Below, one piece after another: positions 16,790 through 39,764 of a stretch of DNA of 64,000 bases. A program made the translations under genes and the position numbers. Source of the stretch: Spirochaetota bacterium (GTDB lineage Bacteria; Spirochaetota; UBA4802; UBA5550). Position 1 is the stretch's first letter. The number at the start of each line of letters is the position of its first letter. A model generated the notes under the pieces. It was not told the origin of the DNA and did no database searches. It saw only the letters and a program-made list of their open reading frames with translations. Where the stretch lies: assembly GCA_041749375.1 (NCBI GenBank), contig JBGTBN010000035.1:7016-71015 (forward strand), in the 5' to 3' direction.

Positions 16790-17338
16790 ATGCTGTTAAA
16801 AGGATGTCTCCACACTCATACCACCTGTTCCGACGGCAAGCTGACGCCCCAGGCGGTGGCGGAGGCTTACGAATCGAGGGGATATGACTTTGTAGCGTTC
16901 ACTGACCATGATTATCTGCTGAAGCCGAACTATCGCGAGCTGTACGATCAGGTCAAAACCGACATGATCATTTTCCACGGCATCGAGATAACGGCTTTCG
17001 TTCGGGGCTACATTCATGTGGGGAAGATCGAGGGGGACAGCGAGACGCTCCATATCTTCAACCACATCGGTGAATATGACATGACGCCGGAGCAGGTGCT
17101 GGAGCGGCTGGTGGATCTGGAGCAGATGTTTCCCCTGGACGCGGTGGAGATTACGACAAAGGGGTTCCGGGACACGCTGTTCGAGTCGCTGAACATCAAA
17201 TACCCGAAAATCGCATCCGATGACTCGCATACGCTCGTGGGCATCGGGCGGGCCTGGGTCGAGCTTGACGCGAAGCGGGAGAAGGATTCGATACTCAGGG
17301 CAATAAAGCATGGCTCGTTCTGGAACTGCTACGTGTGA
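16790..17338 (+). CDS. PHP-domain metal-dependent phosphoesterase
   Basis: LKGCLHTHTTCSDGKLTP..YDFVAFTDHDY are PHP His/Asp motifs. Confidence 0.75.
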   Translation: MLLKGCLHTHTTCSDGKLTPQAVAEAYESRGYDFVAFTDHDYLLKPNYRELYDQVKTDMIIFHGIEITAFVRGYIHVGKIEGDSETLHIFNHIGEYDMTPEQVLERLVDLEQMFPLDAVEITTKGFRDTLFESLNIKYPKIASDDSHTLVGIGRAWVELDAKREKDSILRAIKHGSFWNCYV

Positions 17339-17475
17339 TTGCGGGACCCGGGCGGAAAGCGGAAGATTCCCGCGCAGGAGTGCGCGGGGGCGAGGACTTA
17401 TAACAGATACGGTATACTAATTCAGGAGGCTTATAGTGATCCTTTATCTTTTCAGAATTTACAGGAGGATTGGTA

Positions 17476-18621
17476 ATGGGTAAAAGAATGGCGATCTGCG
17501 CCGTTGCGCAGATTAAGAACGATCCGGAATACAGGCATCTTCGTTTCCAGAACATGCTGCTTGAGTGCTTTGAGTCGATTATGGGCCAGACAAAGGTGAC
17601 CTTTGACATGGAGAAGGGCATCCGGACAATCATCACATGCTCGGATGACGTGTTCGACGCGCGGACCATATCCAACAACGGTATAACGGACGTCGTGGGA
17701 GCGCACTTCCGCGGTGAAGAGAAAATGGCGCAGGAGAGCATCAACGGCCTCGGCTACGGTATGGCATGCATACTCAGCGGGCATGATGATGTGATCCTGT
17801 TCATGGGTCACTGCAAGGAATCACAGGGAGAGAGCCGGCGGATGGCGACGAACCTTTCCTACGATCCGTTCTACAGCAGGCCTCTCGGGATGGATTTTCA
17901 GAACGTGGACGCCCTGCAGGCGCGGGCATACATGGAAAAATCGGGCGTTACCGACGAGCACCTCGCGAAAATAGTGGTCCGCTCCAGGAAGAACGCAGCG
18001 AAGAACCCCTACGCGCGGGAGAACAAGCTCGTCGACGAAAAAGAAGTCATGAATTCGCCGATGTACGCGGACCCGCTGCGCGAGCTCCACGTGTACCCGG
18101 TCACCGACTGGGCGTACGGGATGCTCCTCTGCTGCGAAGAACGGGCGAAAGAGTTCACGAAAAACCCTGTGTGGATCACCGGGTACGGCAGCTGCATGGA
18201 CCGCTATTTCCTCGGCGATCGTGACCTCTCATCGAACTTCTCGCTTAAAAACGCCGCCAAGCGGGCATATGATAAGGCCGGCGTCAGGGACCCGAAGAAA
18301 GACGTCCAGCTCTTCGAACTGAGCGACCACGCGGCGCACCAGCTCCCCATGTGGGCTGAAGGCGTCGGCATCGCCGACGAGGGCAAGGGCGGAAAATGGA
18401 TCGACGACGGCGGCATGGACAAGTTCAGCGTGAACCTGTCGGGCGGCCAGCTCAACGGCAACCCGCTCCTGCTCGGGGGCGCGGCACGGGCCATTGAGTG
18501 CTACTACCAACTGACGGGCCAGGCAGGCGAGCGCCAGGTCAAGGGAGCCAAGCGGGCCGTGGCCCAGGCGGCCACCGGCGGCGCGGGCCAGCACCAGGCC
18601 GTGATAGTAATGGAAGCGTAG
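17476..18621 (+). CDS. Thiolase-fold protein, alpha-type, degenerate catalytic motifs
   Basis: AGGAGG SD. SCPx-thiolase-like overall (GHCKES, NLSGGQL), but the nucleophile loop reads KMAQESING and the His motif reads GNPLLLGG. Confidence 0.85.
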   Translation: MGKRMAICAVAQIKNDPEYRHLRFQNMLLECFESIMGQTKVTFDMEKGIRTIITCSDDVFDARTISNNGITDVVGAHFRGEEKMAQESINGLGYGMACILSGHDDVILFMGHCKESQGESRRMATNLSYDPFYSRPLGMDFQNVDALQARAYMEKSGVTDEHLAKIVVRSRKNAAKNPYARENKLVDEKEVMNSPMYADPLRELHVYPVTDWAYGMLLCCEERAKEFTKNPVWITGYGSCMDRYFLGDRDLSSNFSLKNAAKRAYDKAGVRDPKKDVQLFELSDHAAHQLPMWAEGVGIADEGKGGKWIDDGGMDKFSVNLSGGQLNGNPLLLGGAARAIECYYQLTGQAGERQVKGAKRAVAQAATGGAGQHQAVIVMEA

Positions 18622-18633
18622 GGAGGTGAAATA

Positions 18634-19830
18634 ATGGCACATAAAAAAAACAGAAACGTGGGCATAATAGGCATCGGGCAGACGAAGCATTCCAGCCACC
18701 GCGAGGATGTGAACCAGCCTGAAATGATACATGAAGCGGTCAGCCTGGCGCTGAAGGACGCGAACCTGACAATGAATGACATCGACTGCGTCGTTCACGG
18801 CAACATGGAGCTCTTCGAGATGGTGCACCAGCCGGACATGTGGCACGTGCTCGGCACCGGTGCCTACGGCAAGGATTGCATAAGGATCACCACCGGCGGC
18901 ACAGTCGGCGCGACCCTTTCATGCGCGTCGGACAACCTGGTGGCCTCGGGAATGTATGACATCGTCATGGCCATCGGGTTCGAGAAACTGCAGGAGGGGC
19001 ATACCACTGCCGGCATCACAAACATGGCGGATCCACTCTGGTTCCGCAAGATACAGGCTGGAGCCCTGACCGGTTCCAGCGCATATGATGTCGAGCGGGA
19101 ATTTGGACTCGAGCGGGCCAACCGGGCGTCGCTGACGTACCGGATTATCATGGACAAGCACGCCGGGCTCAATCCCAACGCGCACCGGGCGTTCGGACTT
19201 GAATTCAGCCAGATCGACGATCTCATCAAGAGCTCTCCGAAGCTCGTCGGCGAGCTGAAGCTCATTGAAATGTGCTCCCAGTCGGACGGCGCATGCTGCG
19301 TAATTTACGCCTGCGAAAAAAAGGCAAAAGAGATGTCCAAAAACCCGGTCTGGATACGGGACCATATCACCGCGCACAAGGAAGAGACCTTTACCATATT
19401 CGGATACAACAGGGAATTCCCTGTCATGAAGACGCACAAGTTCGCGGCGGAACAGCTCTTCAGGCGGAATGACATCAAGGACCCGCTGAATTATTTTGAC
19501 GTGTTCGAGATGTACGATCCTGCATCATGGTGGGCAATCGACTGGCTCAGGGACTTCTTCGACATGAAGGGCGATGAGCACCTCAAGCTCATCGAGGAGA
19601 AGGAGATCATGATCGGCGGGAAGATGCCAATCAACCCGTCGGGCGGTGTTATCGGGTCGAACCCGATCGGCGCGACAGCGCTGATACGGGTGGCCGAGGC
19701 TGCGCTCCAGGTGCGCGGCAACGCAGGCGGCCACCAGATCCCGACCCCGGTCAATCATGCGCTGGCCTCGGGCTTCGGCGGTACCATGTGGACGGTAATG
19801 ACGATGCTTGAGAAGGAACTTAACTGGTAG
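18634..19830 (+). CDS. Thiolase-fold protein, beta-type, degenerate catalytic motifs
   Basis: RITTGGTVGATL replaces the CxSG loop. AIGFEK is present. NPSGGVIGSNPIGATA has Asn in place of His. Confidence 0.85.
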   Translation: MAHKKNRNVGIIGIGQTKHSSHREDVNQPEMIHEAVSLALKDANLTMNDIDCVVHGNMELFEMVHQPDMWHVLGTGAYGKDCIRITTGGTVGATLSCASDNLVASGMYDIVMAIGFEKLQEGHTTAGITNMADPLWFRKIQAGALTGSSAYDVEREFGLERANRASLTYRIIMDKHAGLNPNAHRAFGLEFSQIDDLIKSSPKLVGELKLIEMCSQSDGACCVIYACEKKAKEMSKNPVWIRDHITAHKEETFTIFGYNREFPVMKTHKFAAEQLFRRNDIKDPLNYFDVFEMYDPASWWAIDWLRDFFDMKGDEHLKLIEEKEIMIGGKMPINPSGGVIGSNPIGATALIRVAEAALQVRGNAGGHQIPTPVNHALASGFGGTMWTVMTMLEKELNW

Positions 19831-19840
19831 GAGGACAATC

Positions 19841-21031
19841 ATGGCAGAATACTGGGGAATAAAAGTAGAAGATATATTCAACACGATGAAAGACCGTTTC
19901 CGTCCCGATGGAGCCAAGGGAGTCGATGCCGTTTTCGGATATGACATCAAGGACGAGGGGAAGTGGAAACTGACTGTAAACAATAATGTGATGAAAATCG
20001 AGAAGACCGACGACCTGTCGAATTGCGTGTCTGTCATGAAGGCGGACGGTGAGACCTTTGTCGGAGTGAACACCGGCAAGGTCGATGCGACGAACGCCTT
20101 CATGGGCGGCAAGGTCAAGGTCGACGGCGACATGGCCGCCTTCGGGAAGACCGGCAAGCTCTTTCGCAAGTTCGTCATCGCGAAAAAAGAAATGTCTACG
20201 AAGGAATATCTCGTTGATATGTTCGCGACGGTGGTTCCGCGCTTTAAGGCCGGCGAGTCGGAAGGTGTTGACGCTTCCTTCGCGTTCGATCTCGGCGGAC
20301 CGGACGGCGGTAAGTGGACCGTCTTCATCAGGAATAAGGAATGTTCGGTCACGGAAACGATCGAGGGGAAACCGAGCGTGACTCTCGAATTCAACGATGC
20401 CAAGGACTATGTCGATTTCATCCTTGGAAAAATCGACGCGCAGAGCCTGCTCGCGGCCGGTAGGGCCTCGGCCAAGGGCGACATCAACATGATGCAGACG
20501 AAATGGCCGGTCCTCTTCGATAAGTACAAGGACCCGGTTGGAAGCAGCGTTCCGGAGCAGGAACTCCTGGTACTTAAGAAGACGATATCGGTAAACCAGA
20601 AGTACGCAACCGGCCCCGTCATGGGCAAATTTCTCAAGGGGCTGAAGGATAAAAAGATATTCGGGAACAAATGTACCAAGTGCGGACGCATTCAGCTGCC
20701 CCCGCGGGAAGTATGCGCAGAGTGCCGCGTGCGTGCGGGTGATTTTCTGGAGGTTGGACCCAAGGGCGAGGTCCGCTACATGGACATTGTCTATTACGCC
20801 ATGCCCGACCCGCTGACAGGCATTGCGCGCGAAACCCCGTACGGCGGGATCAACGTCCTGCTCGACGGCTGCAAAGGAAATGAAACACTGCCGCATTTCA
20901 TACGGAGGGATCAGATAGAAAAGATCCAGATGGGCTGGAATGAAAAGAAGGGAACGCGCGTCCGTCCCGTGTGGGAGGAAAACCGGATCGGCGATATCTG
21001 GGACATCAAATACTTCGAGATCGATGAGTAA
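19841..21031 (+). CDS. SCP2-SCP2-DUF35 fusion protein
   Basis: GGAGG SD. Two SCP2-like repeats (..NAFMGGKVKVDGDMAAFGK.. and ..LLAAGRASAKGDINMM..), then a Zn ribbon CTKCGRIQLPPREVCAEC and an OB-fold ending DIKYFEIDE. Confidence 0.85.
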   Translation: MAEYWGIKVEDIFNTMKDRFRPDGAKGVDAVFGYDIKDEGKWKLTVNNNVMKIEKTDDLSNCVSVMKADGETFVGVNTGKVDATNAFMGGKVKVDGDMAAFGKTGKLFRKFVIAKKEMSTKEYLVDMFATVVPRFKAGESEGVDASFAFDLGGPDGGKWTVFIRNKECSVTETIEGKPSVTLEFNDAKDYVDFILGKIDAQSLLAAGRASAKGDINMMQTKWPVLFDKYKDPVGSSVPEQELLVLKKTISVNQKYATGPVMGKFLKGLKDKKIFGNKCTKCGRIQLPPREVCAECRVRAGDFLEVGPKGEVRYMDIVYYAMPDPLTGIARETPYGGINVLLDGCKGNETLPHFIRRDQIEKIQMGWNEKKGTRVRPVWEENRIGDIWDIKYFEIDE

Positions 21032-21042: not shown

Positions 21043-22470
21043 ATGACAACAAAGCAGATGAAAGGATTTGAAGACAGCTATGTCGTTGAAGGTAAGATGG
21101 CGCTCCCTTATTCTTACTTCGCCGGGCGTGTCGGCAGCAAGTTTATTACGACGATCCGGGACCAGAAGAAGATCATGGGAGTGAAGTGTCCGACCTGCGG
21201 CATTGTCTACCTGCCCCCGCGGCAGGTGTGCGACAAGGACTTCACCGACATCCGTGATAACTGGGTGGATGTCGGCACGGAAGGGAAGGTGACAAATTTC
21301 ACGGTGGTGCGGTACGACGACAAGCACCTGCCGCGGAAGGCGCCCTTCGTGCTGGCGCTGATCAAGCTGGAAGGGGCGGACACGCCCTTCATGCATATCG
21401 TCGAGGAGTGCCCGATCGAGAACGTGAAGATCGGGATGAAGGTCGAGGCCGTGTTCGCCGAGAAAACGACGAGCACCATCCTTGACATAGATCATTTCAA
21501 GCCCGCGGCCGCGACGCTTTCGGTCCACGAGCGCAACAAGGCAAGGAAACAATGGGTTCCGTCAGACGAGCCCGAAACTCAAGAAAAACGGAAAGGGGGG
21601 AAACCTGACATGTCAAAACCAGCAATTCTCACTGCAGCGCTGACAGGCGCCGCCACAATGAAGAACCAGAATCCGAACGTGCCGTATACGCCCGCCGAGT
21701 TTGCGGAAGAAGCGTACAAGTGCTACAAGGCCGGAGCGGCCATGGTGCACGTGCATGCCCGCATGGACAACGGGTTCGCGACCCACGAGCATGACCGAAT
21801 CCGCGAGACCCATGACGCCATCAAGCAGAAGTGCCCCGAGCTGATCGTGAACCTGAGCTCGGCGGTCGGTATGGGCAAGACGGCGGAACAGCGGATTTCG
21901 CAGATCGTGGCGATCAAGCCGGAGATGGCGTCCCTCAACACCAACACCATGAACTTCAGCATCATCGACCGGAAGACCGGTAAGATATTCATAGACTTCG
22001 TGTTCGAGAACACCTTCACCATGCTGCAGGATTTCGGCAAGGCCATGGAAGAGAACGGCGTAAAGCCCGAGATTGAAGTGTACGACATGGGCGGCCTCGA
22101 CAATACCATGCTGATGGCCAAACAGGGCTTCTTTACCGATCCGATGAACTTCAACTTCGTGTGGGGCGTTGCCGGCGGACAGGCGTTCAGGGCGGATGCC
22201 TTCATAGCCCTGATGAACGCGATCCCAGCGAAAGCAAACTTCACCACCTGCGGCGTTGGCAGCGACGAGTTCCCGGCCATCATGCAGTCCTGTCTCCTGG
22301 GCGGTCACATGAGGGTCGGCCTCGAGGACAACATCCGCATGCCGAACGGCGAGCTGGCCAAGGGAAGCTACGAGCTCGTTGAAGTGGCCGCACGGATGTG
22401 CGAATGCCTCGGCCGGCCGATTGCAACGCCGGATGAAGCGCGCGCGATAATGGGTCTTAAGAAGAAGTAA
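21043..22470 (+). CDS. DUF35-BKACE (beta-keto acid cleavage enzyme, DUF849) fusion protein
   Basis: N-terminal CPTCGIVYLPPRQVC plus an OB-fold ending DIDHFKP. About 40-aa linker. BKACE blocks PAILTAALTGA and AAMVHVHARMDNG follow. Confidence 0.85.
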   Translation: MTTKQMKGFEDSYVVEGKMALPYSYFAGRVGSKFITTIRDQKKIMGVKCPTCGIVYLPPRQVCDKDFTDIRDNWVDVGTEGKVTNFTVVRYDDKHLPRKAPFVLALIKLEGADTPFMHIVEECPIENVKIGMKVEAVFAEKTTSTILDIDHFKPAAATLSVHERNKARKQWVPSDEPETQEKRKGGKPDMSKPAILTAALTGAATMKNQNPNVPYTPAEFAEEAYKCYKAGAAMVHVHARMDNGFATHEHDRIRETHDAIKQKCPELIVNLSSAVGMGKTAEQRISQIVAIKPEMASLNTNTMNFSIIDRKTGKIFIDFVFENTFTMLQDFGKAMEENGVKPEIEVYDMGGLDNTMLMAKQGFFTDPMNFNFVWGVAGGQAFRADAFIALMNAIPAKANFTTCGVGSDEFPAIMQSCLLGGHMRVGLEDNIRMPNGELAKGSYELVEVAARMCECLGRPIATPDEARAIMGLKKK

Positions 22471-26420: not shown

Positions 26421-26431
26421 GGAGGAGAGAA

Positions 26432-31676: not shown

Positions 31677-32285
31677 ATGAACGAGAGAAGCAAGAGCGAT
31701 ATCATTAATTTGAGGCGGGCCCAGCTGACCAGGGCCGCCTATAAGGTCGTAGGGCAGAAAGGGTATTACGACTTCACCATACGGGACATTGCCCGCGAGG
31801 CAGGTCTGTCAACTGGCCTGGTCCACTATTATTTCAAGAACAAGGAAGACTTGCTTCTGAATCTCTTAAAAGAGATCAACAGGAACATGCTGGTCGTCCT
31901 GAACAAGGCCATCAGCGCGTCCGATGACCCGAAGGAGAAGCTGAACATTTTCATGCACCAGGCCTTCAACCTGGTCAGGGATGAGAAAGACTACTTCTAT
32001 ATCGTTATCGATTTCTGGACGCAGGTAAACAAGAACGACCGGATGAAGAGGGCCAACACCAAGCTGTTCAAGAGCTACCGGGACGAGATCAGCAAGATAC
32101 TCAGAGAGGGTATCGAGAAGGGCGTGTTCATGAAAATGGACGTCGATTATACCTCTGCAGTGATCATATCGATCATCCAGGGCATGATCATACAGTACGT
32201 CATAGACACAAACGCGTTTGATTATGAGGATTACGCGAAGAAGCTGATGAAGCACGTTAACGACCTGGTCACCAAGAAGAAGTAG
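31677..32285 (+). CDS. TetR-family transcriptional regulator
   Basis: HTH RRAQLTRAAYKVVGQKGYYDFTIRDIAREAGLSTGLVHYYFKNKEDL. Confidence 0.9.
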   Translation: MNERSKSDIINLRRAQLTRAAYKVVGQKGYYDFTIRDIAREAGLSTGLVHYYFKNKEDLLLNLLKEINRNMLVVLNKAISASDDPKEKLNIFMHQAFNLVRDEKDYFYIVIDFWTQVNKNDRMKRANTKLFKSYRDEISKILREGIEKGVFMKMDVDYTSAVIISIIQGMIIQYVIDTNAFDYEDYAKKLMKHVNDLVTKKK

Positions 32286-33629: not shown

Positions 33630-33678
33630 GCAAGGGCCGGGAACAGGACAACCATACATCAGACAGGAGAATGACATT

Positions 33679-34854
33679 ATGAACTACGATATGACACCTG
33701 ACCAGATATCGATAAAAGAAAACTTTGCGAAGTTCTGCAGCAAGGAGATCGAGCCGCGCGCGCAGATGCTCGACCAGGCATCCCACGACGATGTTAACAA
33801 GCTCATCAAGGAGAACATCAAGAAGCTCGCCGACATCGGTTATCTCGGCATGGGCCACGAGGAGGCGTACGGCGGGACCGACGTGGAGCTCATCGGCCAG
33901 GCCATAGCCGGCGAAGAGGTGGCCAAGGCCTGCGCCTCGACCTTTCTCTCGTGCGGCGCCTCGTGCGGCCTTTTTGGCGTGCCGGTCAGGCTCTTCGGCA
34001 CGGACGAGCAGAAGAAGAAATACCTTCCCGGCATCATCAAGGGAGAGATCATCGGCTGCTTCGGCCTGACCGAGCCCGAGGCGGGCAGCGACGCCGCCGC
34101 CATCAAGACGAATGCCGTCAAGAAGGGAGACTCGTGGGTTATCAACGGGACCAAGACCTTCATCACGAATGCGACCATCGCGGACGTGGCACTCGTCTTC
34201 GCCTACAACGACCGCGAGAAGGGACCCGGCGCGGGCGTCACCTGCTTTCTGGTTGATAAGGGCACCAAGGGGTTTTCGGTGAGCAAGCCTTTTGACAAGA
34301 TGGGCTTCCGCGGATCGCCCACAGCCGAATTAATATTTGAAGACTGCGAGGTAGCAGAGAGCGCGGTACTCGGCAAAGTCGGCGCGGGCTTCATCCAGGC
34401 CATGCAGACCCTCGAGTACGGCAGGATCGGGATGGCCACGGTCTGCCTGGGCATCGCGGCCCAGTGCCTCGACCAGGCCAACAAGTATTCCAAGGAGCGC
34501 AAGGCATTCGGCAAGCCGATCAACCGGTACCAGGAGGTATCCTTCAAGCTCGCGGACATGATGATCATGTCAGACGTAGCGCGCCTTCTGATCCACCAGG
34601 CGGCATGGGCCAAGCAGACGAAAAACCCCGAGGCGGCGATACTGGCTTCGGTTGCGAAGGTGTGGGCCTCCGAGGCAGCGACCCAGATCTCCAGCATGGC
34701 AGTGCAGGTCCATGGCGGATACGGCTACATCAGGGAGTTCCCGGTGGAGCGGCTCTACCGGGACGCCAAGCTCGGCGAGATCGGGGAGGGCACGTCCGAG
34801 ATACAGAGAATCCTCATCGCCAAGGACCTGATCAGGAAGTACGGCGGGAAATAA
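33679..34854 (+). CDS. Acyl-CoA dehydrogenase
   Basis: CFGLTEPEAGSDA, VHGGYGY and EIGEGTSEIQ (catalytic Glu present). Confidence 0.9.
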   Translation: MNYDMTPDQISIKENFAKFCSKEIEPRAQMLDQASHDDVNKLIKENIKKLADIGYLGMGHEEAYGGTDVELIGQAIAGEEVAKACASTFLSCGASCGLFGVPVRLFGTDEQKKKYLPGIIKGEIIGCFGLTEPEAGSDAAAIKTNAVKKGDSWVINGTKTFITNATIADVALVFAYNDREKGPGAGVTCFLVDKGTKGFSVSKPFDKMGFRGSPTAELIFEDCEVAESAVLGKVGAGFIQAMQTLEYGRIGMATVCLGIAAQCLDQANKYSKERKAFGKPINRYQEVSFKLADMMIMSDVARLLIHQAAWAKQTKNPEAAILASVAKVWASEAATQISSMAVQVHGGYGYIREFPVERLYRDAKLGEIGEGTSEIQRILIAKDLIRKYGGK

Positions 34855-34931: not shown

Positions 34932-35366
34932 ATGGATTATCAACTGGGCAAATCGTATGACGAAATCAATGTGGGCGACAAGGCGTCGTTCTCGAAAACT
35001 GTTACTGAAACCGATATCGCGCTGTTCGCGGCGATCACCGGGGACTTCAACCCGATGCACATGAACGAGGAATTCGCGAAAAAAACCCCTTTCAAGACAC
35101 GGATCGCGCACGGCGGGATCCCGCACAGCCTCATCGCCCCGGTATGGGGAACGCAGCTTCCCGGCCTGGGAACCGTGGCCCTCGAGATCAAGACGCGTTT
35201 CAAGGCCCCTACCTATATCGGAGACACGATAACGGCTACCACCGAAGTCGTTGAGAAGCTTCCGGAAAGGAAATGGATAAAGATGAAGCTGACCTGGACG
35301 AACCAGAAGGGAGAAACCGTGGGCGTGGGCGAAGGTCTCGTCATCCCGCCGCCGAAAATCGGGTAG
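34932..35366 (+). CDS. MaoC-like (R)-specific enoyl-CoA hydratase, single hot-dog
   Basis: AGGAGA SD. FAAITGDFNPMHMNEEFAKKTPFKTRIAHG is the MaoC dehydratase motif. Confidence 0.85.
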   Translation: MDYQLGKSYDEINVGDKASFSKTVTETDIALFAAITGDFNPMHMNEEFAKKTPFKTRIAHGGIPHSLIAPVWGTQLPGLGTVALEIKTRFKAPTYIGDTITATTEVVEKLPERKWIKMKLTWTNQKGETVGVGEGLVIPPPKIG

Positions 35367-35560: not shown

Positions 35561-35767
35561 CGTTGTGCTGTTCCCGCTAATATATATAACAAACTTATTC
35601 TTCTCAAAAAAAATCTGCAAGTTTTAATAATATTCCGCATTTGTGCTTGACGTAAATAGTAAATATTTATCTATTGTAAATATTAACAATTACTAAATAT
35701 ATACAATGGCAACTATTTACAAAACGATGGCCGGTGCGTGTATCCGGGCCGGTTCGGGGACGGCGGG

Positions 35768-36310
35768 ATGAACCTCGGGTCAATAATCAGAAAACGAAGG
35801 AAAGAGCTCAAGCTGACCATGAAGGAAGTGGCCGAGCGGGCGGGAATTTCCGAGGGGTTCCTGAGCCAGATCGAGAACAACGTCAACTCGCCCTCGGTCG
35901 AAACGCTCCGTAACATCTGCGGCGCCATCGGCATCAACGCGGGAGACGTGCTGAACCAGGTGGAAAAGCAGGACCGGTTCGTGGTGATACGGAAGGGGGA
36001 CTGGACGGAAATCGATATTCCGCATTCGGGATTTGCCACGAAGCGTTTTTTCTCTCCGGACAACCGGACCGTCGTCGATACGGCCATACTCACCCTCAAG
36101 AAAGGCACGTCAATACCGGTCCGGAAGAACATACGGAACAGCCAGGAGCTCCTGTGCGTACTCAGGGGGAAGGTCGAGCTTGAGCTGGGCGAGGAACGGA
36201 TACCACTGGCCGAAGGCGATGCGATCCATTACTGGTCAAACCCGGCCCGCCAGAGGATCATCGGCATGAGCGCAGGGAACTCGGTTGTGGCATGGATGGG
36301 AACATTGTAG
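35768..36310 (+). CDS. XRE-family HTH plus cupin-domain transcriptional regulator
   Basis: HTH IRKRRKELKLTMKEVAERAGISEGFLSQIENN. C-terminal cupin block with G..I.L.EGDAIHY. Confidence 0.85.
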   Translation: MNLGSIIRKRRKELKLTMKEVAERAGISEGFLSQIENNVNSPSVETLRNICGAIGINAGDVLNQVEKQDRFVVIRKGDWTEIDIPHSGFATKRFFSPDNRTVVDTAILTLKKGTSIPVRKNIRNSQELLCVLRGKVELELGEERIPLAEGDAIHYWSNPARQRIIGMSAGNSVVAWMGTL

Positions 36311-36388: not shown

Positions 36389-37825
36389 ATGATTAAATTC
36401 AGCGACAAACAATTGGCAATTCCCAAATTGATGAGGCCGGTGTACCTTGTTACAGCCGGACAGTCAAAGTTCGACAGGGCGTTTCCGGACAAGCGTACGG
36501 AAGAGCTCTGCGTCGATGCGCTCGTGCAGGCGGCGGAGATGATCAACCTGTCCCCGGCCGAGCTCAAGAGTTACATTCACACTTGCTACTATGGCCACTT
36601 CGCCGACCACTTCGGCGATCAGCTGCTGGGCGAGTCCGTCATACACGACCGGCTCGGTCTCGACCCGCTGGGCAACATCGGCGTGAAGACCGGCGGCGCA
36701 ACCGGCGGCTCCACCCTGTGGGAGGCCGTGAAAGCGGTTGCCTCCGGTTACTCCGACTGCGTCCTGGCAATGGGCTGGGAACGGATGGACGAGGTTCCCA
36801 CGGATGAGGGAAACTTCTACATCTCCTGCGCTGCGGACAAGGACTGGGAAGGACCCCTGGGCCACATCTACACCGGGTACTACGCCGTCATGGCGCAGAA
36901 GTACTGGAAAGTGTTCGGCAAGGAGGAGGAGTCCTTCCGCCGCACGCTGGCCGAGATTTCCGTGAAGCACCACGGGTACGCGCGCATGAACCCGTACGCG
37001 CAGGCTCCGATGAAGATCACGGTGGAGGACGTTCTGAACTCGCCGGTGGTGGCCTATCCGCTGCGGGCGCTTGACTGCTGCGTCATGAGCGTCGGCGCTG
37101 CCTGCGCGATCATCTGCGATGAGGCGACGGCGATGAAGCTGACCAAGAACACGAAGAACAAGCCGCTCCGGATATGGGTCACCGCGGGATCGCACACCCT
37201 GCGTCCGGCCGACCGGCGCGACATGGAGATACCGCTCCTCCCGAATGAGTCTGCGGACCAGTACAAGGACCTGGCGAAGAAGTTCCCCGGCGGCGAGCGT
37301 TACCCGGGCTTCACCGGCTTCCTTGCGGCGCGGATGGCGGCATACTACGCGTACAACCAGGTCGGCATCAAAGATCCGACCGAGGACCTGGATGTCATCG
37401 AGCTCCACGACGCTTTCACCATCAGCGATGTGCAGACGTATGAGGATATCGGAATCCGGCCCTACGGGTACGGGCGCGACTATGTCGAGTCGGGTGACTG
37501 CTACCACACGAACCCGAAAACCGGCAAGCCGGGCAGGCTTCCCTCGAACCTCTCGGGCGGCCTCATCGGTTGCATGCACTCCGTCGGCGCGACCGGCATC
37601 ATGCAGGTGTTCGAGATAGCCCTTCAAATCTGGAACCGCTGGGCAGAAGTGCATGGAGATGATAAGATATGGAAGAAATTCAACCGGCAGAAGCCTGCGG
37701 ACTGGACGGATCTCCAGGTCAAAGACGCTAAGAGGGCATTAGCCATCAGCCACGCCGGAGTCGGCTCTCACGTGACGTGTACTATTCTGCAGAACCCAGA
37801 TCATCTTATTAAAAAGGACGCATAG
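36389..37825 (+). CDS. Thiolase-fold protein (large, 478 aa) without a Cys nucleophile loop
   Basis: GVKTGGATGGSTLWEAVKAVASG, AMGWERM, and NLSGGLIGCMHSVGATG (His retained). Confidence 0.85.
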   Translation: MIKFSDKQLAIPKLMRPVYLVTAGQSKFDRAFPDKRTEELCVDALVQAAEMINLSPAELKSYIHTCYYGHFADHFGDQLLGESVIHDRLGLDPLGNIGVKTGGATGGSTLWEAVKAVASGYSDCVLAMGWERMDEVPTDEGNFYISCAADKDWEGPLGHIYTGYYAVMAQKYWKVFGKEEESFRRTLAEISVKHHGYARMNPYAQAPMKITVEDVLNSPVVAYPLRALDCCVMSVGAACAIICDEATAMKLTKNTKNKPLRIWVTAGSHTLRPADRRDMEIPLLPNESADQYKDLAKKFPGGERYPGFTGFLAARMAAYYAYNQVGIKDPTEDLDVIELHDAFTISDVQTYEDIGIRPYGYGRDYVESGDCYHTNPKTGKPGRLPSNLSGGLIGCMHSVGATGIMQVFEIALQIWNRWAEVHGDDKIWKKFNRQKPADWTDLQVKDAKRALAISHAGVGSHVTCTILQNPDHLIKKDA

Positions 37826-37838: not shown

Positions 37839-38429
37839 ATGAGCCAAATAGGACAGGTATCCGTCAAGAACGGACAGTACAAGATAAAAGGCGACTTTCA
37901 CCATCTCGAGCTGGGCCAGCCGATCCGCATCGCGGACGACAACTGGCGGCTGATCGGGATCACCAATCCGCGGCAGCTGACGCACATGCATTCCTACGGC
38001 GGGGAATCGGTCTTCTTCGAGTCTCTCAGCCAGGGAAAGCTGATGGCAACAAGGTGCGACAATCCCAAGTGTGAAACCAAGGGGTCCATCTTCCAGCCGT
38101 TTCGGATCCATTGCCCGGAATGCCTGAGCAAGATGACGCCGATCGACATGACCGACATAGCGAAGAAAACTGCGAAGGTCCACACCTTCATGGTGTGCGA
38201 ACGTTCCGGGGCTTTCAGCCTGCTGGACAAACCGATCAAGTTCATCAATGTCGAGTTTGACGGCGTGTGCACGATCCTGATGAGCTACCTTGCGGTGGGT
38301 GACCCCGCATTCGGGATGAAGGTCGTGCCCTGCTTCAAGAGACAGGACCCCACGTTCACGATCCTGGACCTCTGCTTCGTTCCCGAGGGGACCAAGGTGG
38401 ACCAGCTGCCCAGGGGGTTCTCGTACTAG
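37839..38429 (+). CDS. DUF35 Zn-ribbon/OB-fold protein with an N-terminal extension
   Basis: GGAGGA SD. CDNPKCETKGSIFQPFRIHCPEC followed by an OB-fold. Confidence 0.8.
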   Translation: MSQIGQVSVKNGQYKIKGDFHHLELGQPIRIADDNWRLIGITNPRQLTHMHSYGGESVFFESLSQGKLMATRCDNPKCETKGSIFQPFRIHCPECLSKMTPIDMTDIAKKTAKVHTFMVCERSGAFSLLDKPIKFINVEFDGVCTILMSYLAVGDPAFGMKVVPCFKRQDPTFTILDLCFVPEGTKVDQLPRGFSY

Positions 38430-38520
38430 CCTCGCAAACGTTTGCGGGGTTATCGGTCGGAATGTTATCGCGAACGGAGCGCCGTCCTGATAGGTCCGCA
38501 AGCGCTTGCGGACCTATCAG
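38430..38520. repeat. Two palindromic hairpins of the AAACGTTT / ATAGGTCCGC family
   Basis: CCTCGCAAACGTTTGCGGGG (38430-49), and a perfect 34-nt palindrome CTGATAGGTCCGCAAGCGCTTGCGGACCTATCAG (38487-520). Confidence 0.75.
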
Positions 38521-38606
38521 GGCTCCTCGCAATGACAGGCGGACGGCACTGCGGCCATACGGTAAAGATAGAACGAGAGATATGCGGTAACATTGGGAGG
38601 ATAACT

Positions 38607-39764
38607 ATGGATTTTTGGCTTAATGACGAACAAAAAATGCTCCGGTACAATGTCCGGGAGTTCGCGGAAAAGGAGATCAAGCCGAAAGCGCAGGAGCTTG
38701 ATGAGAAGGAGGAGTTCTCCTACGATATAACGAAAAAAATGGCGGACCTTGGCCTTTTCGGAATCTACGTTCCGGAAGAGTGGGGGGGGGCCGGCATGGA
38801 CTACCTCTCCTATTGCGTCGCGGTCGAGGAGATTTGTCGTATCGACGGGTCGCACGGCGCCACGGTGGCAGCGGGCAACTCCCTCGGCATAGGGCCCATC
38901 TATTACTACGGGAGCGAGAAGCAGAAGCAGGAGTGGCTCCCGCGGCTCTGCAAGGGCGAGATACTGGCCTCCTTCGGCCTCACCGAGCCCGAGGCCGGCT
39001 CCGACGCGGGCGCGAGCAAGACGAACGCGAAGCTCGAGGGGGGGCAGTGGGTCATCAACGGCAGCAAGATCTTCATCACGAACTCGACAAGCAAGATGGC
39101 CGGCGTGTGCACGGTGCAGGCCATCACCGCTGCCAAGCCGGATGGCAAGAAGGAAGTCTCCTGCATCCTGGTCCCGAACGGGACGAAGGGCTATACCCAG
39201 AAGAAGATGACGAAGAAGATGATGTGGCGCGCGTCGGACACCGGCGAGCTCTACTTCGACGACTGCCGCGTGCCGGAGGAGAACCTCCTGGGAAAGCGGG
39301 GCGAGGGTTTCCACCAGATGCTGCAGACCCTGGACAACGGGCGGCTGGCCATCGCGGCCATGGGCCTGGGTGGTGCGCAGGGAGCCTACGAGCTGGCGAT
39401 GAAGTACGCGAAGGAGCGGAAGCAGTTCGGGAAACCGATCTCGACGTTCCAGGTGAACGCGTTCAAGCTGGCCGACATGGCCACGGAGATCGAGGCGGCG
39501 CGCAATTTATTGTACAAGGCCTGCTTTCTTAAAGATCAAAAAAAGCCCTTCGGCAAGGAAGCGGCCATGGCCAAACTTTACTGCTCCGAGGTGATGGGAC
39601 GCGTCGTGGACGAGGCGGTCCAGCTCCATGGCGGCTACGGCCTGATGAAAGAGTATAACATCGAGCGCTTTTTCCGCGACTACAAGCTCCTCACCATCGG
39701 CGAGGGCACGTCGGAAGTGCAGCGGATCGTTATCTCGAGAAAGATAGGGTGCTACGACGAGTAG
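38607..39764 (+). CDS. Acyl-CoA dehydrogenase
   Basis: GGAGG SD. FGLTEPEAGSDA, LHGGYGL and TIGEGTSEVQ. Confidence 0.9.
   Translation: MDFWLNDEQKMLRYNVREFAEKEIKPKAQELDEKEEFSYDITKKMADLGLFGIYVPEEWGGAGMDYLSYCVAVEEICRIDGSHGATVAAGNSLGIGPIYYYGSEKQKQEWLPRLCKGEILASFGLTEPEAGSDAGASKTNAKLEGGQWVINGSKIFITNSTSKMAGVCTVQAITAAKPDGKKEVSCILVPNGTKGYTQKKMTKKMMWRASDTGELYFDDCRVPEENLLGKRGEGFHQMLQTLDNGRLAIAAMGLGGAQGAYELAMKYAKERKQFGKPISTFQVNAFKLADMATEIEAARNLLYKACFLKDQKKPFGKEAAMAKLYCSEVMGRVVDEAVQLHGGYGLMKEYNIERFFRDYKLLTIGEGTSEVQRIVISRKIGCYDE

What the first reader, a model, noticed from the sequence alone, without database searches (positions are those of the whole stretch)
16790..39764. A 23-kb one-strand acyl-CoA cluster pairs five thiolase-fold proteins 1:1 with five DUF35 modules
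Seen: 22 consecutive + strand genes. Thiolase-fold ORFs start at 17476, 18634, 27926, 29082 and 36389. DUF35 modules (Zn ribbon plus an OB-fold ending in an ..(H/Y)F(K/E).. tail) sit at 19841 (C-terminal part), 21043 (N-terminal part), 27293, 30256 and 37839. The cluster also has a CoA ligase, CoA-transferase A/B, a crotonase, a MaoC hydratase, three ACADs, and TetR and XRE-cupin regulators. Established: DUF35 proteins partner thiolase-fold enzymes, as in the Ltp2-ChsH2 steroid side-chain retro-aldolase of actinobacteria, the BbsAB benzoylsuccinyl-CoA thiolase, and the archaeal thiolase/HMG-CoA synthase complex. Inference: this is a multiplied igr/Ltp2-like C-C cleavage toolkit for a bulky hydrophobic acyl-CoA (steroid-, isoprenoid- or alicyclic-type) in a probable anaerobe. 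I know of no characterised pathway with this composition, but I cannot search databases here.
Basis: partly seen in the sequence, partly recalled or inferred. Interest (0 to 1): 0.8.

Follow-up and report, generated by a model that had tools for sequence, protein, structure and literature searches.

The report
Cysteine-less thiolase-like lyase cluster in anaerobes
This is a real 22-gene lipid-breakdown cluster, conserved in many uncultured anaerobes, whose five "thiolases" all lack the thiolase cysteine and most resemble the poorly understood Ltp3/Ltp4 branch-removing enzymes of sterol-degrading actinobacteria; they are wired through adaptor domains to a beta-keto-acid cleavage enzyme and lipid-carrier domains.

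Summary
There are 22 + strand genes (16763-39764), with five thiolase-fold proteins and five DUF35 modules.

None of the five thiolase-fold proteins has the nucleophilic cysteine. No hydroxyacyl-CoA dehydrogenase or true thiolase is present. The two adjacent pairs are A/B paralogues that group with actinobacterial Ltp4/Ltp3. That heteromeric aldol-lyase is genetically required for C24-branched sterol side chains, and its neighbour carries two DUF35 modules. The B subunits keep an invariant Tyr at the catalytic-base position of Ltp2/Sal aldolases. ACAD1 lacks the catalytic Glu, which suggests a heteromeric dehydrogenase.

The cluster is syntenic in about 60 species of Spirochaetota, Smithellaceae/Syntrophaceae, Desulfomonilia, Desulfobacterales and Chloroflexota. 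A cholesterol-oxidase-like gene recurs next to it. No protein reaches a characterised NCBIfam equivalog, and no paper describes the cluster.

Best reading: DUF35-scaffolded retro-aldol complexes for beta-branched or bulky lipid acyl-CoAs, with BKACE converting the beta-keto acid product back to a CoA thioester. The substrate is unknown, and sterols are doubtful. This is a new variant of a known kind.

The parts
855..3257 (-). Cholesterol-oxidase-like GMC flavoprotein (800 aa, with a C-terminal extension of about 240 aa). It is an associated gene, not contiguous with the cluster in this window.
   Evidence: NF058674 'cholesterol oxidase' scores 506 bits over the full model, below its 850 cut-off. 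The best PDB matches are all cholesterol oxidases (1coy, E 3.5e-25). Homologues at 59-67% identity sit directly upstream of the PHP gene, on the same strand, in loci L017, L020, L021, L022 and L027.
16763..17338 (+). Short PHP-domain metal-dependent phosphoesterase-like protein, the first gene of the conserved cluster. Its role is unknown.
   Evidence: Pfam PHP and PHP_C. Orthologues are found in 54 of 80 related loci, always just before ThlA1.
17476..18621 (+). ThlA1, an A-type (Ltp4-like) thiolase-fold subunit. It has Ser/Gly at the nucleophile position and variable active-site motifs.
   Evidence: Thiolase_C_1. Motifs MAQESING / SDHA / GNP and their variability among 56 orthologues. 31% identity to, and best match with, the Tsukamurella Ltp4-type protein. 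It falls in the A clade of the NJ tree.
18634..19830 (+). ThlB1, a B-type (Ltp3-like) thiolase-fold subunit and the presumed catalytic lyase subunit.
   Evidence: Gly replaces the nucleophilic Cys (TTGGT invariant). Y-D-P and N-P-I-G are invariant in 60 orthologues. Its best NCBIfam hit is PRK08313, at 264 bits and below the cut-off. It falls in the B clade with the Ltp3-type protein.
19841..21031 (+). Two SCP2 lipid-carrier domains fused to a C-terminal DUF35 (4-Cys Zn ribbon plus OB fold).
   Evidence: Pfam SCP2 (two stretches, E 7e-22) and zf-ChsH2. The C-terminal 160 aa match both DUF35 modules of the Tsukamurella OB-fold protein. In Desulfobacterales the same protein also carries an N-terminal acyl-CoA ligase and 1-3 SCP2 repeats.
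21043..22470 (+). DUF35 (aa 20-139), a charged linker, then a BKACE beta-keto-acid cleavage enzyme (aa 192-475).
   Evidence: Pfam OB_ChsH2_C, zf-ChsH2 and BKACE at E 2e-93. The HxH, Glu and R..EDN residues align with Kce 2y7d. It is below all four NCBIfam BKACE equivalog cut-offs. The fusion is conserved at 60-96% identity in 64 loci and is split into two genes in distant versions such as L065.
22606..23385 (+). Crotonase-type enoyl-CoA hydratase.
   Evidence: ECH_1, E 1e-61. Both catalytic Glu motifs can be read in the sequence. It is present mainly in the Spirochaetota versions.
23529..25367 (+). Long-chain-type acyl-CoA ligase (612 aa).
   Evidence: AMP-binding and AMP-binding_C_3. The best NCBIfam hit is FadD11, below its cut-off.
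25425..27202 (+). Family I CoA-transferase, subunits A (25425-26420) and B (26432-27202), of the glutaconate CoA-transferase type.
   Evidence: CoA_trans. The best PDB matches are GctA and GctB, 1poi, at E 3e-40 and 1e-46. The catalytic Glu of GctB aligns with the Glu in FEAGG. These genes lie next to a stand-alone BKACE in Desulfobacterales loci L070-L075.
27293..27757 (+). Stand-alone DUF35 (a).
   Evidence: zf-ChsH2 and OB_ChsH2_C above their cut-offs.
27926..29071 (+). ThlA2, an A-clade thiolase-fold subunit with motifs YDAF and GHP and Gly at the nucleophile position.
   Evidence: Pfam. Motifs and their conservation in 43 orthologues. Tree position.
29082..30239 (+). ThlB2, a B-type (Ltp3-like) thiolase-fold subunit.
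   Evidence: 39.6% identity over the full length to the Tsukamurella Ltp3-type protein. The Tyr of YQPY and NPIG are invariant in 41 orthologues. PRK08313 scores 365 bits against a cut-off of 514.
30256..30720 (+). Stand-alone DUF35 (b).
   Evidence: zf-ChsH2 and OB_ChsH2_C above their cut-offs.
30726..31613 (+). Conserved 295-aa protein with no family, possibly PP2C/SpoIIE-like (regulatory?).
   Evidence: No Pfam or NCBIfam hit. Orthologues in 32 loci at 36-84% identity. A weak in-register BLASTP match to the SpoIIE domain of the window protein at 8060-9874 (E 0.26). The AF2 single-sequence model was unusable (pLDDT 33).
31677..32285 (+). TetR-family regulator.
   Evidence: TetR_N with TetR C-terminal domains. 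It is conserved just before ACAD1 in 35 loci.
32478..34854 (+). ACAD1 (32478-33629, no catalytic Glu) and ACAD2 (33679-34854, Glu present). This is a probable heteromeric acyl-CoA dehydrogenase.
   Evidence: All three ACAD Pfam domains are present in both. ACAD1 has an invariant GGGT where MCAD has YEGT (36 of 36 orthologues) and Ser at the alternative IVD-type position. ACAD2 has GEGT.
34935..35366 (+). MaoC-type (R)-specific enoyl-CoA hydratase.
   Evidence: MaoC_dehydratas, E 7e-24. The GDFNPMH hydratase motif is present. Smithella-type relatives have two MaoC genes here, and the first lacks that motif.
35738..36310 (+). XRE-family HTH plus cupin regulator.
   Evidence: HTH_3 and Cupin_2. 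It is not conserved in the related loci.
36389..37825 (+). Thl478, a 478-aa thiolase-fold protein of the PRK06365 type. It has Gly at the nucleophile position and motifs HDAF and MHS.
   Evidence: NF004982 scores 715 bits against a cut-off of 695. Alignment. It groups with true thiolases in the NJ tree but lacks the Cys.
37839..38429 (+). Divergent DUF35, the partner of Thl478.
   Evidence: The same trio (Thl478, DUF35, ACAD3) lies upstream of the cluster in L016 at 78-91% identity.
38610..39764 (+). ACAD3 with its catalytic Glu present (the ORF is open from 38442).
   Evidence: ACAD domains. GEGT motif.
39801..39813 (+). Terminator-like hairpin followed by a T run, just after the last gene.
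   Evidence: This is a consensus match only.

Best explanation
The cluster encodes a beta-oxidation-like route in which C-C cleavage is done by retro-aldol (lyase) chemistry, not by thiolysis. The lyases are thiolase-fold complexes scaffolded by DUF35 domains.

Shown:
- There are two heteromeric pairs, ThlA1/ThlB1 and ThlA2/ThlB2. A is Ltp4-like and B is Ltp3-like.
- Each pair comes with two DUF35 modules. A third protein, Thl478, has its own DUF35.
- All five thiolase-fold proteins lack the nucleophilic Cys.
- The DUF35 modules of the first pair are fused to two SCP2 lipid-carrier domains and to a catalytically intact BKACE.

Inferred pathway:
1. A hydrophobic carboxylic acid is activated by the ligase or by the GctAB-like CoA-transferase.
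2. It is desaturated by a heteromeric ACAD (ACAD1 inactive, ACAD2 active).
3. It is hydrated by MaoC or crotonase to a beta-hydroxyacyl-CoA that cannot be oxidised, that is, a tertiary alcohol at a branch point.
4. The B subunit splits it into acetyl- or propionyl-CoA plus a ketone or beta-keto acid, using the invariant Tyr as base.
5. The tethered BKACE takes a beta-keto acid product and acetyl-CoA and returns an acyl-CoA plus acetoacetate.
6. The CoA-transferase then activates the acetoacetate.

The DUF35 modules act as docking adaptors that bring carrier, ligase and BKACE to the lyase core. The likely substrates are beta-branched lipids, such as isoprenoid acids, 3-substituted glutaryl-type intermediates, or a sterol-like side chain. 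The actual substrate is unknown.
For: Catalytic residues:
- No nucleophilic Cys in any of the five proteins when aligned with 6esq, 7yvy and 6hsj.
- ThlB1 Y-D-P and NPIG are invariant in 60 orthologues. ThlB2 Tyr and NPIG are invariant in 41.
- That Tyr position is the catalytic base in Ltp2 (YDHF) and Sal (YDCY), and Sal also has Gly at the Cys position (PMC12329534).

Relation to Ltp3/Ltp4:
- A/B paralogy is shared with an actinobacterial locus of Rv3521-ltp4-ltp3 type. Tsukamurella has a 2xDUF35 protein, a PRK07937 member and a PRK08313 member, next to a FadD19-like ligase, a crotonase, a P450 and a steroid thiolase.
- ThlB2 is 39.6% identical to the Ltp3-type protein.
- All A and B proteins share a one-residue deletion before the (G/S/T)-(N/H)-P motif that true thiolases lack.
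- Ltp3-Ltp4 is described as a heteromeric aldol-lyase whose product carboxylate must be re-thioesterified (PMC6678751).

Other components:
- There is no HADH, true thiolase or carboxylase in the cluster.
- ACAD1 lacks the catalytic Glu in 36 of 36 orthologues.
- BKACE metal and catalytic residues are conserved.
- The CoA-transferase Glu is conserved.
- BKACE and the CoA-transferase stay adjacent even when separated from the rest (L070-L075).
- An acyl-CoA ligase is fused to (SCP2)1-3-DUF35 in Desulfobacterales.
- A cholesterol-oxidase-like gene recurs beside the cluster in a second phylum.

Conservation and precedent:
- Synteny holds across phyla.
- Tertiary-alcohol cleavage of 3-substituted glutaryl-CoA by a thiolase-superfamily enzyme in anaerobes has a published analogue (PMC12583861).
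Against: - There is no biochemical or expression evidence at all.
- The second catalytic residue of known aldolases (Tyr344 of Ltp2, Cys304 of Sal) has no counterpart here: the B subunits have Pro or Ala at the Cys304-equivalent position.
- By sequence the five proteins are nearer to archaeal and SCP2-type thiolases than to Ltp2 or Sal.
- They fall below the curated cut-offs of the Ltp3 and Ltp4 models.
- Ltp3-Ltp4 itself is known only genetically.
- A beta-keto acid product needs a carboxyl group on the branch, and no carboxylase lies in or near the cluster.
- The A subunits are also strongly conserved, so calling them non-catalytic is a guess.
- The roles of the PHP protein and the 295-aa protein are unexplained.
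- Sterols are not degraded in methanogenic digesters (PMC9871531), which argues against the sterol version of the model.
Confidence: 0.5

Rival explanations
1. These are ordinary thiolases, of the BbsAB or SCPx type, that finish beta-oxidation of branched, dicarboxylic or hydrocarbon-derived acyl-CoAs. An example would be alkylsuccinate metabolites in Smithella and Desulfobacterales.
For: All five proteins hit SCP2-type and archaeal thiolases and BbsB in the PDB (E 1e-16 to 1e-48). The carriers include known hydrocarbon and fatty-acid degraders such as Smithella, Desulfosudis oleivorans and Desulfosarcina widdelii.
Against: The nucleophilic Cys is absent from all five and from all orthologues examined. 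The acid/base Cys of the HDCF motif is absent. No 3-hydroxyacyl-CoA dehydrogenase is present to make the 3-oxo substrate. The BbsB equivalog scores are far below the cut-off.
Confidence: 0.08
2. The Cys-less thiolase-fold pairs are decarboxylases of malonyl- or alkylmalonyl-CoA-type substrates, like KS-Q domains or the weak activity of the trypanosomal SLP. Alternatively they are purely structural scaffolds, and BKACE and the CoA-transferase do the real chemistry.
For: Loss of the Cys with retention of oxyanion-hole-type residues (Tyr/His plus Asn/His) is what decarboxylating relatives show. This rests on established knowledge of the thiolase superfamily. TbSLP is reported to have malonyl-CoA decarboxylase activity (PMC12329534).
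Against: CtSal, with the same Gly substitution, has no decarboxylase activity. The closest genetically characterised relatives, Ltp3/Ltp4, are assigned aldol-lyase function. Very strong conservation of many polar residues in both A and B subunits argues against mere scaffolds.
Confidence: 0.12
3. The cluster handles short-chain metabolism centred on BKACE and a glutaconate-type CoA-transferase. Candidates are a ketone-body or glutarate-like fermentation route, or the unidentified six-carbon propionate dismutation pathway of Smithella.
For: The BKACE is closest to the lysine-fermentation Kce. The CoA-transferase is closest to GctAB. The ACADs resemble acryloyl-, glutaryl- and butyryl-CoA-type dehydrogenases. 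Many carriers are Smithella.
Against: Two or three SCP2 lipid-carrier repeats and long-chain-type ligases are fused or adjacent. There is no mutase for a carbon-skeleton rearrangement. The cluster is equally common in Spirochaetota, Desulfomonilia and Desulfobacterales. Five Cys-less thiolase-fold proteins are not needed for such a route.
Confidence: 0.1
4. The system works in the synthetic direction. It condenses acyl-CoAs with carbonyl compounds to build branched lipids or ketones, by analogy with the archaeal thiolase/HMG-CoA synthase/DUF35 complex or with PhlABC.
For: DUF35-scaffolded complexes with two different thiolase-fold partners are known for biosynthesis (PMC12329534; 6esq and 5m3k among the PDB hits).
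Against: Both biosynthetic models need a Cys nucleophile, which is absent here. The cluster also holds a ligase, three ACADs, two hydratases and a TetR, which is a typical catabolic gene set. There is no HMGCS or KAS III partner.
Confidence: 0.07

Closest known systems
Actinobacterial Rv3521-Ltp4-Ltp3 gene set (with FadD19 and EchA19), needed for degrading C24-branched sterol side chains such as beta-sitosterol and campesterol
   Same: Both have two adjacent paralogous Cys-less thiolase-fold genes, an A type (Ltp4-like) and a B type (Ltp3-like), together with two DUF35 modules. Both share the motifs Y-x-P and (S/T)NPIG in B and GNP in A, and a shared one-residue deletion. An acyl-CoA ligase and a crotonase lie alongside. 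ThlB2 is 39.6% identical to the Ltp3-type protein.
   Different: The carriers here are strict anaerobes of other phyla. The pair is duplicated. The DUF35 modules are separate genes fused to SCP2 repeats, to a BKACE and, in Desulfobacterales, to a ligase, rather than forming one double-DUF35 protein. Scores are below the PRK08313 and PRK07937 cut-offs. There is no P450 or oxygenase context. Ltp3-Ltp4 itself has only genetic evidence.
Ltp2-ChsH2(DUF35) and Sal-Shy(DUF35) steroid side-chain retro-aldolases, and the igr operon logic
   Same: The fold is a thiolase fold with Gly at the nucleophile position and Tyr at the first position of the Y-D-x-x motif. There is a DUF35 partner. The route runs from a heteromeric ACAD through MaoC hydratase(s) to a lyase, with no dehydrogenase step.
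   Different: Ltp2 and Sal are homodimers. Their second catalytic residue (Tyr344 or Cys304) is not conserved here. In them DUF35 is fused to the hydratase, not to SCP2 or BKACE. Sequence similarity is lower than to true thiolases (6ok1 at E 1e-9 to 3e-30, against 1e-23 to 1e-48 for 7yvy/6esq).
Mammalian and trypanosomatid SCPx, an SCP2-type thiolase fused to an SCP2 domain
   Same: A thiolase-fold enzyme of the SCP2-thiolase branch is combined with SCP2 lipid-carrier domains for branched or bulky acyl-CoAs.
   Different: Here SCP2 is attached indirectly through a DUF35 adaptor, is duplicated or triplicated, and the enzyme lacks the thiolase cysteines.
BKACE family (Kce, dehydrocarnitine cleavage enzyme, 3-oxoadipate:acetyl-CoA acetyltransferase)
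   Same: The TIM-barrel domain has conserved HxH, Glu and R..EDN residues. It is adjacent to a CoA-transferase that could take acetoacetate, as in carnitine and lysine pathways. The carnitine-operon comparison is from my own knowledge.
   Different: It is fused to a DUF35 adaptor and embedded in a thiolase-like lyase cluster. It is below every curated equivalog cut-off. No paper in the library mentions BKACE together with DUF35.
BbsAB benzoylsuccinyl-CoA thiolase and the archaeal thiolase/HMG-CoA synthase/DUF35 complex
   Same: These are DUF35-scaffolded thiolase-fold assemblies with one DUF35 per thiolase-fold protomer.
   Different: Both use a catalytic Cys. There is no HMGCS here, and no type III CoA-transferase or SDR genes of bbs type.

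Membership tests
Functional thiolase (SCP2/archaeal type) | Thiolase fold | tested here: met
   Thiolase_C_1 is above its cut-off in all five. PDB phmmer hits to 7yvy, 6esq and 6hsj.
Functional thiolase (SCP2/archaeal type) | Nucleophilic Cys (C-x-S-G) at the start of helix N-alpha-3 | tested here: not met
   The residue is Ser/Gly (ThlA1) or Gly (ThlB1, ThlA2, ThlB2, Thl478), and the same holds in 41-60 orthologues per family.
Functional thiolase (SCP2/archaeal type) | Acid/base Cys in the H-D-C-F motif and His in G-H-P | tested here: not met
   The first motif reads SDHA, YDPA, YDAF, YQPY or HDAF. The second reads GNP, SNP, GHP, TNP or MHS. No protein has the Cys, and only ThlA2 and Thl478 keep a His.
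Ltp3-Ltp4 heteromeric aldol-lyase with double-DUF35 partner | Two adjacent paralogous thiolase-like genes of distinct A (Ltp4) and B (Ltp3) types | tested here: met
   Reciprocal BLASTP with the Tsukamurella pair, the NJ tree, and shared motifs and indel.
Ltp3-Ltp4 heteromeric aldol-lyase with double-DUF35 partner | Two DUF35 modules encoded beside the pair | tested here: met
   19841 plus 21043 flank pair 1, and 27293 plus 30256 flank pair 2. The Tsukamurella OB-fold protein has two tandem DUF35 modules.
Ltp3-Ltp4 heteromeric aldol-lyase with double-DUF35 partner | Score above the curated NCBIfam cut-offs (PRK08313 at 514, PRK07937 at 419) | tested here: not met
   ThlB2 scores 365, ThlB1 264 and ThlA1 154 bits. 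The Tsukamurella proteins score 734 and 593.
Ltp3-Ltp4 heteromeric aldol-lyase with double-DUF35 partner | Retro-aldol cleavage at a branched (tertiary) carbon of a sterol side chain | not testable with these tools
   The function is known only from knock-outs (Wilbrink 2012, as cited in PMC6678751).
Ltp2/Sal steroid retro-aldolases | Tyr as catalytic base in the Y-D-x-(F/Y) motif, with Gly at the thiolase Cys position | tested here: met
   This holds for ThlB1, ThlB2 and ThlA2. It does not hold for ThlA1 (Ser) or Thl478 (His).
Ltp2/Sal steroid retro-aldolases | Second catalytic residue (Ltp2 Tyr344 or Sal Cys304) | tested here: not met
   The Cys304-equivalent position is Pro (ThlB1, ThlB2) or Ala (ThlA2). 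The Tyr344-equivalent position could not be aligned, because no Ltp2 sequence was in hand.
DUF35 (PF12172 + PF01796) | Zn ribbon followed by an OB fold | tested here: met
   Four modules pass the Pfam cut-offs. The fifth passes only at family level, with 21/25 and 19/25 relatives matching. The module fused to BKACE has C-x2-C...C-x2-D, as does module 2 of the Tsukamurella protein.
BKACE (PF05853) | TIM-barrel domain with Zn ligands HxH and Glu, plus the catalytic Glu and Arg | tested here: met
   E 2e-93. VHVH, EIEVY and R.GLEDN align with Kce 2y7d.
BKACE (PF05853) | Membership of a characterised isofunctional subfamily (Kce, 3-oxoadipate, dioxohexanoate) | tested here: not met
   It scores 276 against 382, 205 against 350 and 179 against 430 bits.
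alpha2beta2 heteromeric acyl-CoA dehydrogenases (ChsE type) | Adjacent ACAD genes, one lacking the catalytic Glu | tested here: met
   ACAD1 has GGGT in 36 of 36 orthologues. ACAD2 has GEGT. Asymmetry of the FAD sites was not tested.
Glutaconate-type family I CoA-transferase | A and B subunits with the catalytic Glu in subunit B | tested here: met
   1poi_A at E 3e-40 and 1poi_B at E 1e-46. The Glu of FEAGG aligns with the GctB Glu, unlike in the decarboxylase AibB.

The most novel reading that the evidence does not exclude
In strict anaerobes, DUF35 is a general docking adaptor. It assembles a metabolon around an Ltp3/Ltp4-type heteromeric retro-aldolase and recruits lipid-carrier domains, an acyl-CoA ligase and a BKACE. 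Both products of the lyase, acetyl-CoA and a beta-keto acid, are passed to the tethered BKACE. The branch point is thereby removed and the chain is returned to CoA-thioester form without ATP or oxygen. This would be the missing oxygen-independent way to get past beta-branches in isoprenoid or sterol-type lipids in methanogenic and sulfate-reducing habitats. It would also give the unexplained re-thioesterification step after Ltp3-Ltp4 a mechanistic precedent.
Probability: 0.3. Interest if true: 0.8.

Novelty: new variant of a known kind. Interest (0 to 1): 0.62.

Why it matters
How fermenting, syntrophic and sulfate-reducing bacteria get past branch points in isoprenoid and other branched lipids without oxygen is largely unknown.

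This cluster is abundant. The search found thousands of relatives, and the cluster is present in about 60 species-level genomes from peat, sediments, aquifers and digesters. It is highly conserved and none of it has been characterised.

It gives three concrete, expressible targets:
- a heteromeric Cys-less thiolase-fold complex;
- a DUF35-BKACE fusion;
- ligase-SCP2-DUF35 fusions.

These could define a new C-C cleavage module and clarify what DUF35 does in general. They could also throw light on the still unresolved biochemistry of mycobacterial Ltp3-Ltp4.

Tried and rejected
- **Source contig.** An exact look-up of the window's own contig failed for both the window protein and its 100%-identical cluster representative. 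The source is inferred only from 95-96% relatives, which are Spirochaetota MAGs.
- **Literature.** Searches for DUF35+BKACE, DUF35/thiolase/SCP2/anaerobic, Kce with Smithella/Syntrophus/Hxd3, SCP2/Zn-ribbon/Syntrophales, sterol carrier with Desulfobacteraceae proteomes, and Sterolibacterium/aldolase/DUF35 found no description of this cluster. The NetSyn BKACE context study does not mention a thiolase or DUF35 context.
- **Structure prediction.** An AF2 single-sequence model of the 295-aa protein was unusable (pLDDT 33), so no fold search was run.
- **Promoter and terminator scans.** They were close to shuffle expectation and define no operon structure beyond a hairpin after the last gene.
- **tRNA scan.** No tRNA or integration hallmarks were found.
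- **BbsAB-type thiolase and archaeal thiolase/HMGCS complex.** Rejected because the Cys is absent and there is no HMGCS, SDR or type III transferase.
- **Smithella propionate dismutation.** Rejected because there is no mutase, SCP2 repeats are present, and the taxonomic spread is wide.
- **BKACE acting on the 2,3-seco steroid ring-A product.** Rejected because that acid is a delta-oxo acid, not a beta-keto acid (my own knowledge).
- **CoA-transferase pair as an AibAB-type decarboxylase or IpdAB-type hydrolase.** Rejected because the catalytic Glu is kept and GctAB is much the closest match.

Full report
**What is there.**
The region 16763-39764 holds 22 consecutive + strand genes. In order, Pfam gives the following:
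- a short PHP-domain protein (16763);
- two thiolase-fold proteins (17476 ThlA1, 18634 ThlB1);
- a protein with two SCP2 lipid-carrier domains and a C-terminal DUF35 (19841);
- a protein with an N-terminal DUF35 and a C-terminal BKACE beta-keto-acid cleavage domain (21043, PF05853, E 2e-93);
- a crotonase (22606);
- a long-chain-type acyl-CoA ligase (23529);
- CoA-transferase subunits A and B (25425, 26432);
- DUF35 (27293);
- two more thiolase-fold proteins (27926 ThlA2, 29082 ThlB2);
- DUF35 (30256);
- a 295-aa protein with no family (30726);
- TetR (31677);
- two ACADs (32478, 33679);
- MaoC (34935);
- an XRE-cupin regulator (35738);
- a 478-aa thiolase-fold protein (36389);
- a weak DUF35 (37839);
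- a third ACAD (38610).

The fifth DUF35 is below Pfam's threshold by itself (E 0.005). A full-library HMMER search gave 117 relatives. Of 25 aligned ones, 21 match the DUF35 OB domain and 19 match the Zn ribbon.

**It is a conserved unit.**
The DUF35-BKACE fusion has about 90 cluster-level relatives at 68% identity or more, all from uncultured organisms. A scan of species-representative genomes returned 80 loci. They come from Spirochaetota MAGs (nearest to the window at 95-96%), Smithella/Smithellaceae/Syntrophaceae, Desulfomonilia, Desulfobacterales including a Desulfosudis oleivorans MAG, MAGs labelled Bacteriovoracaceae, and one Chloroflexota MAG.

A tblastn of all 22 window proteins against these loci shows one recurring gene order. 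It runs PHP, ThlA1, ThlB1, SCP2x2-DUF35, DUF35-BKACE, (ECH), ligase, (CoA-transferase AB), DUF35, ThlA2, ThlB2, DUF35, the 295-aa protein, TetR, ACAD1, ACAD2, MaoC.
- 57 loci hold the whole first module.
- 32 loci hold both pairs with at least two further DUF35 genes. Many loci are cut by contig ends.
- In distant versions DUF35 and BKACE are separate adjacent genes (L065), so the fusion is derived.
- Some MAGs carry a second copy with only module 1 plus ACAD1/2 and MaoC (L041, L063).
- The Thl478-DUF35-ACAD3 trio is found upstream of the cluster in L016.

**None of the five is a thiolase.**
Aligned with the archaeal thiolase 6esq, 7yvy and the SCP2-thiolase 6hsj, the nucleophilic Cys (VEAACASG) is Ser/Gly in ThlA1 and Gly in the other four. 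The H-D-C-F motif is SDHA, YDPA, YDAF, YQPY or HDAF. The G-H-P motif is GNP, SNP, GHP, TNP or MHS.

Among orthologues, ThlB1 keeps TTGGT, Y-D-P and N-P-I-G invariant (n=60), and ThlB2 keeps Tyr and N-P-I-G invariant (n=41). The same positions vary in ThlA1 and ThlA2.

The literature on steroid aldolases says the Tyr in this motif is the catalytic base of Ltp2 (Y294DHF) and Sal (Y302DCY). It also says Sal has Gly where thiolases have the nucleophile, which is why it cannot do thiolysis (PMC12329534). The cluster contains no 3-hydroxyacyl-CoA dehydrogenase and no canonical thiolase. This fits a dehydrogenase, hydratase, lyase sequence.

**The closest known relative is Ltp3-Ltp4, not Ltp2.**
A tblastn of ThlB2 against plasmids found paired 'thiolase domain-containing' genes in actinobacteria. 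In Tsukamurella the locus reads F420 oxidoreductase, crotonase, AMP-ligase, a 309-aa OB-fold protein, a 359-aa thiolase-like protein and a 390-aa thiolase-like protein, with a P450 and a steroid 3-ketoacyl-CoA thiolase nearby. This mirrors the M. tuberculosis order fadD19, echA19, Rv3520c, Rv3521, ltp4, ltp3 (PMC6429209).
- The OB-fold protein is two tandem DUF35 modules.
- The two thiolase-like proteins are members of NCBIfam PRK07937 ('lipid-transfer protein') and PRK08313.
- ThlB2 and ThlB1 are 39.6% and 33% identical to the Ltp3-type protein, and ThlA1 is 31% identical to the Ltp4-type protein.
- An NJ tree gives an A clade (Ltp4-type, ThlA1, ThlA2), a B clade (Ltp3-type, ThlB1, ThlB2), and a clade of true thiolases plus Thl478.
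- All A and B proteins share a one-residue deletion before the (G/S/T)-(N/H)-P motif. The B proteins also share Y-x-P and (S/T)NPIG.

A review describes Ltp3-Ltp4 as a heteromeric aldol-lyase. It cleaves C24-C25 after carboxylation of the branch and hydration, and the product carboxylate must be thioesterified again (PMC6678751). The window proteins fall below the curated cut-offs of both models. They are relatives, not members.

**The other parts fit a heteromeric, bulky-substrate pathway.**
- ACAD1 has an invariant GGGT where acyl-CoA dehydrogenases have the catalytic Y-E-G-T, and no Glu at the alternative position. ACAD2 keeps the Glu. This is the pattern of the alpha2beta2 steroid ACADs.
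- Smithella-type clusters have two MaoC genes, one without the hydratase motif, as in ChsH1/ChsH2.
- The BKACE domain keeps the Zn ligands and catalytic residues of Kce but reaches no characterised subfamily.
- The CoA-transferase is closest to glutaconate CoA-transferase and keeps the catalytic Glu. It stays next to BKACE even where both are split from the rest (L070-L075).
- In Desulfobacterales, including cultured Desulfosarcina widdelii and Desulfatirhabdium butyrativorans, an acyl-CoA ligase, one to three SCP2 repeats and DUF35 form one protein.
- An 800-aa cholesterol-oxidase-like flavoprotein lies 13.5 kb upstream in the window. Its homologues lie directly before the PHP gene in five Smithella/Syntrophaceae loci.

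**How it most likely works (inference).**
1. The acid is activated.
2. It is desaturated by ACAD1/2.
3. It is hydrated to a beta-hydroxyacyl-CoA that cannot be oxidised because the carbinol carbon is tertiary.
4. It is split by the B subunit of an A/B/DUF35x2 complex.

If the branch carries a carboxyl group, as in the Ltp3-Ltp4 scheme or in 3-substituted glutaryl-CoAs, the two products are acetyl- or propionyl-CoA and a beta-keto acid. These are exactly the two substrates of a BKACE, which would give an acyl-CoA and acetoacetate. The CoA-transferase could then activate the acetoacetate.

The physical tethering of BKACE, SCP2 and (elsewhere) the ligase through DUF35 argues that DUF35 is a docking adaptor. 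A published anaerobic limonene pathway uses the same logic, with a thiolase-superfamily enzyme cleaving 3-hydroxy-3-isopropenylglutaryl-CoA (PMC12583861).

**Weak points.**
- There is no carboxylase in the cluster.
- No counterpart of the second catalytic residue of Ltp2 or Sal was found.
- The roles of the PHP protein and the 295-aa protein are unexplained.
- There are no experimental data.
- A sterol substrate is unlikely for digester organisms, since sterols persist in methanogenic digestion (PMC9871531). Isoprenoid or other beta-branched lipids are my preferred guess.

**Verdict.**
This is a new variant of a known kind: an Ltp3/Ltp4-type, DUF35-scaffolded lyase system in anaerobes, with BKACE, SCP2 and ligase fusions that have not been described. 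No literature search found a description. My confidence in the general mechanism is about 0.5 and interest is 0.62.

Noticed in passing
window 14001-16000: A low-GC island (GC 0.34, against 0.55-0.60 around it) lies just upstream of the cluster. It carries an M23 peptidase (14116-14880), an SH3-domain protein (14905-15510) and a truncated PIN-domain ORF (16185-16475). It may be horizontally acquired. CsgG-like 13389-14108 is conserved in relatives, but the island genes are not.
   Followed up: partly
window 855-3257 (-), 10828-12372 (+), 57463-58815 (+): The window holds three GMC flavoprotein oxidoreductases in a presumed anaerobe. The first is cholesterol-oxidase-like with an unexplained C-terminal extension of about 240 aa. 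The second is conserved upstream of the cluster in Spirochaetota relatives (L004, L006-L008, L036, L038). Their electron acceptor without O2 is unclear.
   Followed up: partly
window 58915-63615: This stretch holds a TetR regulator, a 491-aa protein with no family, and two HGD-D family proteins. These are of the 2-hydroxyacyl-CoA dehydratase / benzoyl-CoA reductase / double-cubane reductase type and fall below all equivalog cut-offs. No ATP-dependent activator gene is visible before the window ends.
   Followed up: no
window 46824-52383: A flagellar gene block (fliF, fliG, fliH, fliI-type ATPase) is followed by an SLT transglycosylase and a GGDEF protein. This is consistent with a motile spirochaete-like host.
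   Followed up: no
L075:379-3399 (-) and proteins P0358-P0477: In Desulfobacterales, an acyl-CoA ligase, a variable number of SCP2 repeats (1, 2 or 3, giving about 780, 893 or 1006 aa) and DUF35 form one polypeptide. The repeats within one protein are nearly identical, which suggests recent tandem duplication.
   Followed up: partly
window 21043-22470, and L084:5996-6925: The DUF35 module fused to BKACE has a C-x2-C...C-x2-D ribbon, with the fourth Cys replaced by Asp. So does the second module of the actinobacterial double-DUF35 protein, whose first module has no Cys at all. This may mark which DUF35 pairs with which thiolase-like subunit.
   Followed up: no
window 19820-21052 (-), 27869-29179 (-), 29052-30398 (-), 36464-37654 (-): Long antisense ORFs (396-448 aa) lie opposite the cluster genes. 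They overlap genes with strong family matches and were not examined further. They are probably the usual artefact of G+C-rich coding DNA.
   Followed up: no
L005 and L063; L011 and L041: Single MAGs carry two copies of the first module: one full cluster, and one short form with ThlA1, ThlB1, SCP2x2-DUF35, DUF35-BKACE, ACAD1, ACAD2 and MaoC next to a divergent ligase. This suggests sub-functionalisation for different substrates.
   Followed up: no
window 40282-42548 (-): Directly downstream on the opposite strand lie a calcineurin-like phosphoesterase and a di-haem cytochrome c peroxidase. The latter is an oxidative-stress enzyme in an otherwise anaerobic-looking gene set.
   Followed up: no
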